From positions 1 through 41,341 of the forward strand of contig JBDHDE010000021.1 of NCBI GenBank assembly GCA_039591655.1: DNA of 41,341 nucleotides, given 5' to 3'. The first letter of the stretch is position 1. Each line of letters opens with the position of its first letter. The position numbers were made by a program. Shown here in pieces: positions 15,701-24,700 of this stretch. The stretch is from Gemmatimonadota bacterium (GTDB taxonomy: Bacteria; Gemmatimonadota; Gemmatimonadetes; Gemmatimonadales; GWC2-71-9).

Positions 15701-18700
15701 GGCATGCTCGTGCTGGGAGGCGAGCGCACCGTGGTGCTGGACTCGGCTCGCGCCATCCTGCGGCGCGATCTGGAGCTGAGCGACCGCTTCGAGATGATCA
15801 CCCTACCCGGCGGCGACAGCCTGCTGCTCGGCCTGACGGGGGTGGGGCCCGAGGCGGAGCAGGGAGGCGCCGGAGGGGAGGCGTTCATCAACTACTCCCT
15901 GTACGCTGCTCTGGGGGCCGAGTACGCAGTGGGGTTGCTACCGGGGGCCGATTCGGCGAGCGCCGACGTAACAGTGTACGACGTGCGGGGGGAGACCGCC
16001 CGCCGGAGCATCGCCCTGCGGCTCAAGCCCCTGGACCATCCCGATTTCCGCATGACGGTGCACCGGGCGGCCGACGAAGTCCTGCGAGCGGCCGCGGGTG
16101 AGCCGGGGTCCGCCGCCACGCGGCTGCTGTTCATTCAGCGCGGCCGGCTGTACCGCATCGACGCGGACGGAGCCAATCTCTCGGCCGTCTCGCCCCGCAG
16201 TGTGACCGCATTCTCGCCGGCCTGGGACCCGTCGGCGAGGCAGGTGGTGTACAGCGAGCTCTCCGGTGGGTGGGGGCGCCTGGTCGTGGCCGACCCGGAA
16301 GCGGACGGTGCCCGGCCCGTCTCCCCGACCTCGCGGTTGCTGAACTACGCCGCCGCGTTCTCGCCCGATGGGACCCTGCTGGCGTTTACCCGCAGCGGGA
16401 ACGACGGCACCGATGTCTACCGCTATAACCTCGCACAGGACTGTTGCTTAGAGCGCTTGACGGTCGGGAGATTTTCGGATAACCTATCACCCACGTTCAG
16501 TCCGGACGGACGGCAGATCGCGTTCGTCTCTACGAGGGCCGGGCTGCCGCAGATCTACGTGATGGCGGCGGACGGGACGGGGCAAGAGCTGTTCGCCCCC
16601 TTCGACTACGGCGTCACCGGGAGTTCGCAGGCGCCGGAATGGTCACCCGACGGCACCCGCATCGCGTTCCACCGCGATGTAATGGGGAGCCCCCAGGTCT
16701 TCATCATGGACGCGCGGTCGCGGGCCGTGCGACAGCTGACCAGTGCCGGGCGGAACGAAGACCCAACCTGGGCGTCCGACAGTCGGCATATTGCCTTCAT
16801 CTCCAGCCGGACCGGCCGACGCCAGGTGTGGGTCATTGACATCGAGACCGGCAGGGTGCGCCAGTTGACGACGGTGGGGGATGCCCGACTGCCGGCCTGG
16901 TCACCACGAATTCCGGAGCCTAGTAACCCATAAGACTGGAGCTCACATGAGACTCAAGTTCACTCTGACTCTGGGCCTTGCGGTAATGGTGGCGGCGGCT
17001 GCGTGCGGTGGCGGGCAGCCCGAGATGGCGCCGGAGCCCGACGCAGACTCGATCGCGGCCGAGCAGGCGCGGCGCGATTCCATCGCTGCAGAGCAGGCCC
17101 TCCGCGACTCCATCGAGCGCGCCCGTCGCCTCGAGGAGGAGCGCATCCGCCGGGAGCGCGAGGAAGCGACCCGTCGTGAGCGTGAGATCACGGATGCGGT
17201 AGCCGCGATGATCGCCGCGGTCATCAACTTCGACTTCGACAAGTCGAACATCCGTCCGGGCATGGACACCGAGGTGCTGGAGCAGAAGCTCGCCGTTCTC
17301 CAGGCCAACCCGGCGCTGATGATCGAGATCACGGGGCACTGTGACGAGCGCGGCTCCGACGAGTACAACATGGCGCTCGGCATGCGGCGCGCGCTCTCGG
17401 CCAAGCGGTGGCTCACCGACCGGGGCATCGATGAGGTTCGGCTCGCGGTGCGCTCGATGGGTGAGGAGCAGCCGGTCGACCCGGGCCACAACGAGGATGC
17501 CTGGGCGCAGAACCGGCGGAATGAGTTCGCAATCTCAGGTGGTGGCGACAAGCTGGTACAGCCATCCGGTATGTAACACAGCTCGGCCTCACCGCGGCGA
17601 CGGCCGTCGCCCTGGGCGCCTGCGCGCTCAAGGGCGACGTGCGTCGCGTTGAGGATCAGGTTGCAGAGCTCAAAGCGGAGACAGCCCGCGCCGACTCGGC
17701 GCGGGCTGTCTTGCTCGACCAGGTGCTGCTGTTCCAGCAGCGGCTGCTGGATTCCCTGCACGTGCTACAGCGCCGGGTCAGCATGTTCCAGGGTGATGTC
17801 CGCAGCGACATGACCGATGTGCAGCGGCAGCTCGTGCAGATACAGGAGCTCGCCGGGCAGAGCCAGCAGCGTCTCTCCGAGCTGCGGGGGCAGCTGGACC
17901 AGCGGCTACGGCAGAACGTGGTGCCCGGTGTCCCCGCCACGGGCGACACCGGCAGGGCCGCAGCCGGGGCGGCGGACATCACCGCGCAGGAGCTGTACAA
18001 CCTCTCGCTGCAGCAGCTGCGGCGGGGGAGTCCGGTGACGGCGCGGGCGGGCTTCAGCAAGCTATTGACCGACCACCCCACCCACCTGCTGGCGGCGGAC
18101 GCCCAGTTCTTCATCGGAGAGACCTGGGAGGAGACCGACTCGGACTCCGCGGCGGCGGCATACGAGCTCGTGATCCGCCACCATCCGGACTCGCGCCATG
18201 CCCCGACCGCCCTCTACCGCCTCGGACTGCTCGCCGAGCGGCGGGGAGACCAGCGTGCAGCTGAGGTGTACTACACGCGGGTCATCGCCGGGTACCCCCG
18301 TTCCGAGGAAGCCCAACTGGCGCGAACCAAGCTCGGCAATCCTTAACCCCTGAGGCGCGGCCGCTCCGGGCCTCCCCCCATGAAGCAGGCGAAGACTTCC
18401 GCGAGCGAGATGCCCTTCTTGGACCACCTCGAAGAGCTGAGGTGGCGCATTCTGTGGAGTCTCGTGGCCCTGCTCGTGGGGACGGCGATCGGGTTCTTCC
18501 TGGTCCAGCAGTACAACGTGCTGGAGCTGCTCAAGGAGCCCATCGCCCCGTATCTGCCGGACGGGAAGCTGATCATCATCCGGCCGGCGGACGCGTTCCT
18601 CATCACGCTCAAGCTGGCCATCGTGATCGGGGCGGTGCTGGCGTCGCCGATCATCTTCGCCCAGGTCTGGCGGTTCCTCTCGCCGGCGCTGTACAAGCAC

Positions 18701-21700: not shown

Positions 21701-24700
21701 TACAACTTCACGACCGGCGAGTTCGACCAGCAGGTGCTGCGGCTCGACCGAGATCTCCATCGTTGGCGCGTGACGTTCGGTTTCATGCGGGCGCCCAACG
21801 GCAACGTGGCGTTCAACTTCTTCATCAGCCTCACCGACCAGCCGGAGATCCGCTTCCAGTACGACCAGCGGACGGTGAAGTAGCCCGGCCAGCGGGAGGA
21901 AGTGTCCTCTCGCGAGGACATTGCGCCAGCCCCGCCATTCACAGTAAACCATTGACGGACAAGTAGTTATGTCGTCCAGCCGGGGCGGCACGCTCCCTGC
22001 TATTCCTATGGGGGTGGAGACCTTATCGGGGGAGGCAACTCATGCGGCGCATCATTGTCGGGCTGGCCCTGGTGCCGCTGGCGCTGGCGTGCGACAGCAC
22101 GACGGCGCCCGTGGGCGGAGTGCTGCCGGCACCGGCCAACGTGTTCTACGAGCTCGAGCCCAGCGGCGACCCCGACGCGCCCATGGGTATGCTGCTGGCT
22201 TGGGATCCCATCGTGAGCGATGTCCTCGGCGCCTACCGCGTGTACTCGCGGCCGACGTTCGACGGCGTCTTCGGCCTGCGGGGCGAGACCACGTCGATCA
22301 CCTTCCACGACAACGGCATCCCCGACCTCGAGTATTTCGTGGTGGCGGTGGACGTGGGCGGCCTGGAGGGCGTGCCCAGCGAGAGCGTGATCATCGACGA
22401 GCGGTTGCGGCTCGAGTCGCCGGCGTGGATCAGCAGCATCAGTCTCGACGAGGCGATCCACCTGGCGTGGTCGGACAACCCGTTCCTCAACGAGCCCGCC
22501 GGGTTCATGCAGTACCGCGTCTACAGCGCGTCGTTCTCGCTGGACGACCCCGTATGCGGCGAGTGGGGCCTCGAGGGCACCACGATCGCGCCGGAGTTCA
22601 TCGTGTCCGCGCTGCCCAACGGCGCGCCCCGCTGCTTTGGTATCTCGGCCGAGAGCATCGAGGGCTGGGAGAGCCTGTGGTCGCCCATCAGGGCGGATAC
22701 GCCGCGCCCCGACGCGCGGAACGTGGTGATATACGCCCGGCAGTTCGACGCGTCCCGTAGCGGGTTCCGGTTCTGGCTGGATTCCAACGGTGACGGGCAG
22801 GCCAGCCGCACCGAGCTGGGGCTGATTCTGGACGGCACGAGGCTCGACCTCGACTTCTACATCACGCGGGATGGGAGCAACCGGTTCTTCTTCCAGCCGG
22901 TGCTGCTCACCACCCGTATGCTGGACACGGGTCCCGTCGCTGACCTGACGGAGATCGACTTCGCCCCGGAGATCGGGTACTCGGGTGCACAGCACGAGGC
23001 CAAGGTGGGCTTCGGGTACGTGTTCGAGATGGACGGCGGTGACGGATTCCTCCGCTACGGGGGGATCCGGGTGAGCCACGTCGGCGTCGACTACATGATC
23101 TTCGACTGGAGCTACCAGACCGATCCGGGGAACCCGGAGCTGTCCATCGGCGCCGGCATCTTCACCGGCGGCGGTGGTGGGGTGATCATAGAGCGCTAAG
23201 CAGGGAAGCGGGAAACCGGAAACGGACGACAAGCGCCCCCGGGGTGCGTGGAACTGATGCCGTTCCGCAGCTCCGGGGGCCGAGTGTTCTGGTCAGCTGC
23301 CCCACCGGTTTCCCCTTTCCTCCTTCCCCCGTCAACGGTCTATATTGCCAGTGATGTCCCAGACTGTCGTACTCACCGGTGATTCCCTCACCATCGCCGA
23401 TGTGGTCGCGGTCGCTCGCGAGTTTGCCCCCGTCGAGATCAGCAGCGAGGCCGCGGAGCGCGCCGACCGTTCCCGCGCGGCGGTGGAGCGCATGCTGGCT
23501 ACCGGGCAGCCGATCTACGGCGTGAATACGGGCTTCGGCAAGTTGGCCAACGTGAGTATCCCCCCCGACCAGCTCCTCGAGTTGCAGCGCAACCTCATTC
23601 GGAGTCACGTGGCCGGGGTGGGAGAGCCGCTTCCCGCCGACGTGGTCCGCGCGGCGATGCTGCTGCGTGCCAACGTGCTGCTGCGGGAGACCAGCGGCGC
23701 ACGCGCTGCGGTGCCGCAGACCATTGCCCGGATGCTGAACGCCGGCATCCACCCCGTGGTGCCGGAGCAGGGCAGCGTCGGGGCGAGCGGCGACCTGGCG
23801 CCCCTGTCGCACATCGCCCACGCGATGATGGGGGAGGGCGACGTCGCAGTGGCCGACACGTCGCCCCGCGGTGGGGGAGGGGCGGTGCGGGCGGCGGCGG
23901 CCGACGCGCTGCGCGCTGCCGGCATCGAGCCCATCGAGTTCCAGGCCAAGGAAGGTCTCGCGTTCATCAACGGCACCCAGGTGCAGACGGCGGTGCTGGC
24001 CCTCACGGTGCACGATGCGCGCAACCTGTGGCGCACGGCGCTGGGCGCGGCGGCGATGAGCCTCGAGGCGTTGTTGGGGACGCCGACCTCGTTCGACGAG
24101 CGGATCCACCAGGTGCGACCACACCCCGGGCAGGGGCGCGCGGCGGAGCTGCTGCGGGACCTGCTGGCCGAGAGTGAGATCCGCGAGTCCCATCGCGAGG
24201 ACGACCCCCGTGTGCAGGACGCCTACAGCCTGCGCTGCACGCCACAGATCCTGGGGCCGGTGGGCGATGCGGTCGAGTATGCGGGCGGCGTGGCCGCCAT
24301 CGAGCTCAACGCCTCTACCGACAACCCGCTGCTGTTCGACGGCGAAGTGCTCTCGGGCGGCAACTTCCACGGACAGCCGGTGGCCCTGGTGCTGGATCTG
24401 TTGGCAATCGCGCTGACCACGCTGGCCGGGCTCGCCGAGCGGCGGCTCGACCGGGTAGTGAATCCCGAGACTTCGCATGGCCTGCCGCCGTTCCTCACCG
24501 AGCAGGCGGGCCTCAACTCCGGACTCATGATGGCGCAGGTCACGGCCGCGGCGCTGGCCGCCGAGTGCCGCACGCTGTGCACGCCGGCCAGCGTGCAGTC
24601 CATTCCAACCGACGGCAACCAGGAGGACGTGGTGCCGATGGGGATGGCGGCGGCCTTCAAGGCGCGGCGCGTGCTGCGGAACGCACAGCGGGTGGTGGCC

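What a model noticed while it worked through the whole genome (the two positions that open the first line are those of the whole stretch)
18380..21883. TatC-LptD polyprotein joined by a conserved internal signal peptide
The genome's only tatC is fused in frame to its only LptD-like outer-membrane protein (g01338, 1167 aa). The linker is a Sec signal peptide (RRR, hydrophobic stretch, A-x-A then Q), implying a polyprotein that signal peptidase splits into the inner-membrane Tat subunit and the outer-membrane barrel.
Evidence so far: TatC 15-226 and LptD_2 469-934; sole TatC and LptD rows. A junction-spanning query gives one open frame over both parts in 15 of 19 family genomes; in the 21 genomes of other families they are mostly separate, usually adjacent genes. 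Basic-hydrophobic-small residue/Q linker in all 13 fused proteins that the script read (own plus 12; 4 family loci were not parsed; call 75).
(Added by a program. Inside this text positions count along the whole contig: contig position 1 is position 1 of the stretch shown here. "Call 12" and the like, gene names such as g00115 and contig names such as C1 are that model's own, and its searches are not shown. The text may have been shortened before it was handed on; [...] marks where a part breaks off. The agent that wrote the report below was given it as the finding of a first reader that could run no searches.)

Follow-up and report, generated by a model that had tools for sequence, protein, structure and literature searches.

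The report
TatC-LptD polyprotein with internal signal peptide
In this Gemmatimonadales bacterium and most sampled members of its family, an inner-membrane export protein (TatC) and an outer-membrane lipopolysaccharide-inserter homologue (LptD) are encoded as one chain joined by LptD's retained export signal, which signal peptidase likely cuts to release two ordinary proteins bound for different membranes.

Summary
The fusion is real. One 1167-codon frame (18380-21883) holds the genome's only TatC and only LptD-family match. It is fused in 29 of 33 resolvable family genomes in one sample and 63 of 70 in another, against 2 of 78 outside the family. Elsewhere the genes are mostly adjacent, with start and stop codons touching. 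The linker uses TatC's basic tail as n-region, then LptD's hydrophobic core and A268|Q269. All 96 distinct fused linkers keep A/G then Q, 5-11 residues after the core; controls give 3-5%. A matrix trained on this genome's ordinary signal peptides, without the Q position, ranks this site first in the protein. No internal start codon is conserved. The tree shows two independent fusions in a sister family, five nested re-splits and three losses of the TatC half, so the link looks dispensable. Best reading (about 0.8): a polyprotein cut by signal peptidase I. Cleavage is untested and no fold could be run. Correction: position -3 is mostly Leu, not Ala. The scan reported this fusion before on other genomes (17 notes). 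Recalled precedent: Bradyrhizobium FbcH.

The parts
18380..21883 (+). tatC-lptD fusion ORF, 1167 aa
18380..19114 (+). TatC moiety, residues 1-245, six-helix TatC; alignable to Aquifex-type TatC structure 4b4a over 11-245, ending at the basic cluster
   Evidence: invariant H16, E19, L20, R21, P54, F99, L104, E108 in alignment A1
19103..19123 (+). basic cluster R242-R248: TatC cytoplasmic tail, inferred to serve as n-region
   Evidence: net charge +2 to +6 in 96 of 96 linkers
19142..19165 (+). hydrophobic core (best 8-residue window 255-262) of the retained LptD signal peptide
19166..19186 (+). c-region P263-A268 and predicted signal peptidase I site A268|Q269 (cut between nt 19183 and 19184)
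   Evidence: Q269 invariant in 69 of 69 rows of A1
19184..21880 (+). predicted mature LptD (LptD_2 type), 899 aa: variable Pro/Asp-Thr/Ser-rich start, LptA-like jellyroll region, then predicted barrel
13507..18346 (+). context: tolQ-tolR-tolA-like-tolB-pal-cpoB run directly upstream; cpoB lies within 600 nt of tatC in 110 of 110 fused loci with enough flank
31844..32089 (+). context: the genome's only TatA-family match, 10 kb downstream

Best explanation
One gene encodes TatC joined in frame to an LptD homologue through LptD's retained signal peptide, and signal peptidase I likely cuts the chain at A268|Q269 into an inner-membrane TatC and an outer-membrane LptD. Shown: the single frame, both domains, and the conserved basic / hydrophobic / (L,A,V)-x-(A,G)|Q linker. 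Inferred: TatC's six helices insert co-translationally through Sec, leaving the Arg cluster in the cytoplasm. The following hydrophobic stretch then acts as an internal signal that threads the 899-residue LptD into the periplasm. A LepB cuts, Q269 may cyclise to pyroglutamate, and LptD goes on to BAM and LptE as usual. TatC would keep a short seventh helix (about 246-268) unless a site-2 protease trims it. The join probably arose by deleting TatC's tail end, its stop and LptD's start from an ancestral, translationally coupled pair. It appears close to neutral, because the products are the same either way.
For: (1) All 96 distinct fused linkers have A (87) or G (9) then Q, 5-11 residues after the hydrophobic window. 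The same pattern follows 11 of 375 TatC helices and 20 of 384 helices of other G000 membrane proteins. (2) G000's ordinary N-terminal signal peptides show the same signature: 156 of 272 non-lipoprotein candidates, against 12% background, with -3 A70/L43/V16. (3) A matrix from 159 such peptides, positions -16 to -1 only, ranks A268|Q269 first in the whole protein, first in 51 of 75 fused relatives and in the top three in 67; with +1 included it is first in 73 of 75. (4) In an unanchored MAFFT alignment Q269 is 100% and A268 88% conserved while neighbours L267 and L270 are at 25-26%. (5) The core is no more hydrophobic than free LptD signal peptides (crude 19-residue score 3.9 vs 4.0; TatC TM1 -1.5, TM2 region 2.3). 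(6) Separate-gene forms are nested among fused ones; holding f1 fused rows together is rejected (p-AU 3e-5). In G017, G021 and G109 lptD follows cpoB directly, a tatC lies elsewhere, and their LptD falls among fused ones. (7) Three signal peptidase I genes, LptF, LptG, LptE, LpxC, TatA and 6 Tat-motif proteins are present.
Against: No protein-level evidence. No fold could be computed. The matrix was trained on heuristically picked peptides that were selected for having [AGS]Q, so it is not fully independent of the motif; without Q it missed rank 1 in 24 of 75. Leu at -3 is less favoured by E. coli LepB (recalled), though common in this genome's own signals. No plant-type glutaminyl cyclase was found and none of 21 M28-family matches was assigned as one, so pyroglutamate is only a guess. 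Trees are quick or FastTree runs on one operon; MAG errors or recombination could explain single nested splits (G119, G194), though three splits occur in two genomes each. Kin are not independent.
Confidence: 0.8

Rival explanations
1. The chain is not cut: the hydrophobic stretch is a permanent seventh helix and TatC anchors LptD's N-terminus, making a bridge from inner to outer membrane.
For: A variable 25-60 residue Pro-rich spacer follows Q269 and could span distance. The join is kept in most of a diverse family.
Against: A permanent anchor would not need -1 A/G and +1 Q in 96 of 96. The helix has not become more hydrophobic than free signal peptides. The spacer is also present in unfused LptD. 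The join is lost at least eight times in the trees.
Confidence: 0.07
2. LptD is made from an internal start codon inside the linker, so the fusion is only a missing stop on tatC.
For: G000 has an in-frame GTG at V237 with GAGG about 11 nt upstream. 83 of 95 fused genes have some ATG/GTG/TTG in the first 22 codons from YE. The f2 fusion G047 keeps an ATG just before its core.
Against: No position is conserved. 8 of 96 linkers have no start codon before the core, among them the same-genus G003, G007 and G010. Only 8 of 95 have a start with an SD-like site. GTG use among Val codons is 59% in the linker and 53% in the TatC body, and Met is not enriched. TatC would still be made with LptD attached and need cutting.
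Confidence: 0.06
3. The chain is cut, but the helix left on TatC or the forced 1:1 synthesis is an adaptation: it shapes the one-TatA translocase or couples Tat capacity to LPS export.
For: The fusion arose at least three times (f1, G047, G463) and G463 converged on the same compact linker. G000 has a single TatA.
Against: The core is conserved only in hydrophobicity. Re-split TatCs end 19-27 residues after YE with no such helix. The ancestral pair was already coupled: start overlapping or within 2 nt of the stop in 19 of 19 adjacent f2/f3 pairs.
Confidence: 0.05
4. Assembly or frameshift artefact.
For: All genomes are metagenome-assembled or unnamed.
Against: Dozens of independent genomes at 36-75% identity; 117 of the best 120 long TatC homologues carry LptD_2; contigs bridge the junction.
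Confidence: 0.01

Closest known systems
Separate, adjacent tatC and lptD (LptD_2) genes of other Gemmatimonadota
   Same: Same two proteins, same place after tol-pal-cpoB, LptD with a signal peptide that usually ends in A|Q.
   Different: There TatC has a stop and LptD its own start. YE-to-Q is 51-86 codon equivalents in 18 correctly parsed pairs, against a median of 39 (35-59) when fused.
Bradyrhizobium japonicum FbcH (cytochrome b-c1 precursor; Thony-Meyer, James, Hennecke 1991, PMC51795)
   Same: One bacterial gene giving two proteins. Recalled: a polytopic membrane protein followed by an internal signal peptide that is cleaved. I saw only the reference entry; the paper is not held.
   Different: FbcH gives two subunits of one inner-membrane complex. 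Here the products belong to unrelated machines in different membranes, and the second is a 899-residue outer-membrane protein.
[quoted passage not shown]
   Same: Gln directly after the signal peptide in most Sec substrates; G000 shows 156 of 272 by my heuristic.
   Different: The passages describe N-terminal signals, call the rule typical of Bacteroidetes, and do not mention Gemmatimonadota (0 hits). Here the site is internal.
Viral and eukaryotic polyproteins cut by signal peptidase (e.g. IGSF1, PMC9162367, abstract start seen; flavivirus polyproteins, recalled)
   Same: Internal signal sequence with co-translational cleavage into two proteins.
   Different: Endoplasmic reticulum, not a bacterial two-membrane envelope.

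Membership tests
TatC (PF00902 / TIGR00945) | Full-length profile match above the curated cut-off | tested here: met
   209.5 bits vs 25.1, profile 1-208 of 208; 196.7 vs 132.7
TatC (PF00902 / TIGR00945) | Signal-binding and core residues (HLxELR, P, F, LY..E, PD) | tested here: met
   Invariant or near-invariant in 69 fused proteins; aligned to 4b4a. Q175 stands where 4b4a has Glu. The roles of these residues are recalled.
TatC (PF00902 / TIGR00945) | Tat transport activity | not testable with these tools
   Needs complementation; TatA and 6 Tat-motif proteins exist
LptD | Sequence homology to LptD | tested here: met
   LptD_2 138.8 bits vs 22.5; profile A2 hits PDB 7omm LptD E 6e-11 and 8h1r E 1.5e-7; all six Atlas rows shown are LptD clusters at 0.98-0.99. 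PF04453 not matched; NCBIfam LptD models below cut-off.
LptD | N-terminal LptA-like jellyroll | tested here: met
   Profile positions about 67-119 hit LptA 8onu (E 0.0015) and LptH 4uu4 (E 0.027); the 7omm hit starts there. Sequence level only.
LptD | 26-strand barrel with lateral gate, plugged by LptE | not tested
An LptE-family gene is present by Pfam but had no NCBIfam hit.
Sec/SPase I signal peptide | Basic n-region, hydrophobic core, small residue at -1 and small or aliphatic at -3 | tested here: met
Sec/SPase I signal peptide | N-in / C-out orientation | tested here: inconclusive
   Consistent with TatC's cytoplasmic C-terminus (recalled; alignment to 4b4a ends at the basic cluster); not measured
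Sec/SPase I signal peptide | Cleavage by LepB | not testable with these tools
   Three LepB genes present; no proteomics
Tat (twin-arginine) signal peptide | S/T-R-R-x-F-L-K consensus (recalled) | tested here: not met
   Linkers have Arg runs followed by Ala/Arg/Gly, no conserved F-L; the same runs occur in unfused TatC
FbcH-type signal-peptidase polyprotein | Single gene, internal signal peptide, two mature proteins shown | tested here: inconclusive
   First two met; two mature products not shown. The family definition is recalled.

The most novel reading that the evidence does not exclude
A natural bacterial polyprotein whose one precursor feeds both membranes: the core Tat translocase subunit and the LPS insertase LptD come from one chain, split by signal peptidase at an internal site. 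It is the normal state of a large, widespread Gemmatimonadales family and has fused and re-split repeatedly. It would show that an 899-residue outer-membrane barrel can enter the BAM route from a co-translational, internal signal behind six membrane helices.
Probability: 0.75. Interest if true: 0.72.

Novelty: new variant of a known kind. Interest (0 to 1): 0.62.

Why it matters
Outer-membrane proteins are normally thought to leave the cytoplasm from an N-terminal signal, and inner-membrane proteins to be inserted co-translationally (established knowledge). A natural chain that does both makes the question of switching routes mid-chain directly testable. It also offers a design for making inner- and outer-membrane parts 1:1 from one gene. 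Practically, named homologues are called TatC (one is 'hypothetical protein'), so LptD can be missed in these genomes. The repeated fusion and fission give a natural series for studying how gene fusions become neutral. If the chain proved uncut, a TatC-tethered LptD would be more surprising still.

Tried and rejected
Expression: no RNA holder listed; this is no evidence either way. Promoter/terminator scan of 13000-23400: 0 promoter-like sites and 1 terminator-like site, no more than shuffles. Twin-arginine reading of the RRR: rejected (see membership test). Other internal signal-peptide polyproteins in G000: 1663 frames of 200 aa or more scanned. Nine scored above the TatC-LptD site; all nine show a Met or Val start just before the core, and the five I checked have upstream stretches without a coding GC pattern. 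So no second case was found among those examined. The open_frame figure of whole-protein searches was misleading for G052, G058 and G060, which have an in-frame stop at the junction; I used translated loci or TatC-only frames instead. Signal peptides of L033 and L035 were mis-parsed and left out of comparisons. The concatenated tree is chimeric for G017, G021 and G109 (tatC from another locus), so they were dropped and re-placed by LptD alone. Literature: 'TatC+LptD+fusion' gave 9 papers, 'Gemmatimonad+TatC' 31, of which 15 listed, internal signal/polyprotein searches, fbcH searches. I saw listings and abstract starts; none describes this fusion. PMC3827258 has no hit for 'fusion' or 'fused' in its main text. 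Subscription papers and supplements were not searched.
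Full report
Observation. The frame 18380-21883 is open for 1167 codons. It carries a complete TatC (Pfam 15-226; NCBIfam tatC above cut-off) and LptD_2 matches at 469-673 and 820-934. Six-frame searches of the 95% complete genome find one TatC and one LptD_2 locus, both here, and no PF04453 match. The gene follows tolQ, tolR, a tolA-like gene, tolB, pal and cpoB. Contigs of two runs from one study bridge the junction without indels; that study may be the source of the window, so this is not independent support. Named relatives are Gemmatimonadota, mostly Gemmatimonadales MAGs.

Distribution. I translated the junction in the 61 genomes (tally in 73). Family f1: 29 fused including G000, 2 separate and adjacent, 2 with tatC elsewhere, 4 unresolved. 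f2: 1 of 12 fused. f3: 0 of 11 resolvable. In a phylum-wide TatC search, 63 of 70 listed f1 genomes are fused and 2 of 78 non-f1 genomes with a match; the two samples overlap. These counts include genomes flagged unpublished: G023 (unresolved), G217 (counted fused) and G466 (counted not fused); no conclusion depends on them. A junction query of genome contigs gave 75 fused of 80 loci, the other 5 lacking TatC at a locus end, but that query favours fused forms. Of the best 120 long TatC homologues, 117 carry LptD_2. Of 13 further non-f1 loci fetched, 11 are separate and adjacent, one has a TatC stop at a contig end, and one (G463) is fused. Adjacency is therefore ancestral. In 19 of 19 adjacent f2/f3 pairs an ATG or GTG overlaps or lies within 2 nt of the tatC stop.

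Identity of the second part. A profile of 57 mature sequences hits solved LptD (7omm, E 6e-11; 8h1r, E 1.5e-7) and, in its first part, LptA/LptH. All six Atlas rows shown are LptD clusters. LptF, LptG, LptE and LpxC matches are present.

The linker. TatC aligns to structure 4b4a up to its basic cluster at about residue 245. Then come a hydrophobic core (255-262), PDAALA and Q269. In 96 distinct fused linkers (106 rows, deduplicated on 45 residues) the first [AGS]Q lies 5-11 residues after the core in all cases: -1 A87/G9, -3 L53/A32/V6/other 5; it is also the first Gln after the core in 90. Controls give 11 of 375 TatC helices and 20 of 384 helices of other membrane proteins. The genome's ordinary signal peptides, picked by a simple heuristic, end the same way in 156 of 272 cases against 12% background. 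This resembles the Q-rule described for Bacteroidetes (PMC5837995, PMC10653852; passages read). A matrix from 159 of them, leaving out +1, ranks A268|Q269 first in the protein (15.8 bits, next 11.4), first in 51 of 75 relatives and in the top three in 67. The training set was chosen for having the Q, so this is not wholly independent. In an alignment I did not anchor, Q269 is invariant and A268 is 88% conserved, between columns at about 25%. The core is as weakly hydrophobic as free LptD signals. The fused junction is shorter than the split one (median 39 against 51-86 codons): TatC's tail end, its stop and LptD's start are gone, and TatC's Arg cluster serves as n-region. In G000 no second frame with such an internal site behind real coding sequence was found.

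Internal start. G000 has a GTG at V237 with a weak SD-like site. Against it: no start position is shared, 8 of 96 linkers have none before the core, 8 of 95 have one with an SD-like site, and GTG or ATG are hardly or not enriched.

History. A TatC+LptD tree of 77 rows (FastTree), rooted on other classes, needs 9 changes of state. G047 and G463 each pair with a split relative in f2, so they are independent fusions; G463 has the compact linker, G047 keeps the whole tail. Within f1, split forms sit inside fused groups at five places: G119, G068/G077, G011/G112, G019/G117 and G194. On 34 rows, forcing the 19 f1 fused rows together is rejected (p-AU 3e-5, quick IQ-TREE, LG+G4). Extra f1 genomes for this tree were picked because they looked split, so it overstates their share. 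In G017, G021 and G109 lptD follows cpoB directly, a tatC lies elsewhere, and the LptD falls among fused ones; G118 and G047 carry both the fusion and a second tatC. Many independent fusions could also give this pattern, but nested losses are simpler. Either way the link is readily gained and lost, as expected if the chain is cut.

Mechanism. Shown: one frame, two domains, a conserved signal-peptide-like linker, no conserved internal start, repeated gain and loss. Inferred: co-translational insertion of TatC, an internal signal threading LptD out, cleavage by one of three LepB enzymes, and ordinary BAM/LptE assembly. TatC would keep a short extra helix unless trimmed; signal remnants are thought to be removed by a site-2 protease (PMC5727409, passage). 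I put this at 0.8, an uncut tether at 0.07, internal start at 0.06, an adaptive role of the remnant helix or coupling at 0.05 and artefact at 0.01.

Comparison and novelty. It works like the Bradyrhizobium FbcH precursor; I saw only its reference entry and recall the mechanism. It differs in joining unrelated machines of two membranes. My searches of the open library (listings and abstract starts) found no description of a TatC-LptD fusion; subscription papers and supplements were not covered. The scan's own notes hold 17 findings with these words in at least 14 genomes, of which I saw 8 summaries with the same reading; these are not independent evidence, and my reading was recorded before I opened them. 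Verdict: real, a new variant of a known kind, interest 0.62.

Noticed in passing
G000 genome-wide: Ordinary signal peptides appear to follow a Q-rule: 156 of 272 heuristic non-lipoprotein candidates end in [AGS]|Q against 12% background. The passages read call the rule typical of, or exclusive to, Bacteroidetes and do not mention Gemmatimonadota. No PF05096 cyclase was found; there are 21 M28-family matches.
   Followed up: partly
window 19184-19320 and the same stretch in fused relatives: The first 45 residues after Q hold D-(S/T)-(A/I/L/V/M/T) at 5.2 per 100 aa, against 0.38 expected from composition and 0.8 in the rest of LptD. This matches the Bacteroidetes O-glycosylation motif (recalled) and may mark a glycosylated periplasmic spacer.
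   Followed up: partly
L176 (G119) and L032 (G011): In these split forms TatC ends in 'SIGT' or 'TISGT', resembling the n-region of fused relatives, and G119's LptD leader repeats similar words; fission by a short duplication is possible.
   Followed up: no
L166 (G077) and L044 (G021): Split lptD genes without an evident ATG/GTG/TTG close before the hydrophobic core: unusual start, recent split or assembly error.
   Followed up: no
L180/L183 (G097): Fused form with an acidic Gly/Asp/Pro-rich insert of about 30 residues between the basic cluster and the core, still ending V-Q-A|Q.
   Followed up: no
L057/L058 (G047), L178/L184 (G118): Genomes with both a fused tatC-lptD and a second, stand-alone tatC.
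   Followed up: partly
G000:C44, C105, C34: Three signal peptidase I genes, all above the TIGR02227 cut-off; whether one serves internal sites is unknown.
   Followed up: no
window 22042-23199 (+): Lipoprotein-like ORF (LALAC) with no Pfam or NCBIfam match, found just downstream of lptD in several relatives, including distant families.
   Followed up: no
window 23345-27815 (+) and 8877-10493 (+): Histidine utilisation genes: aromatic amino acid lyase, urocanase, an amidohydrolase and a formiminotransferase-cyclodeaminase. Ordinary.
   Followed up: no
L011/L075 (G007): The fused frame runs 1567 aa with an unrelated C-terminus and the LptD end in another frame: likely a frameshift error in that assembly.
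   Followed up: no
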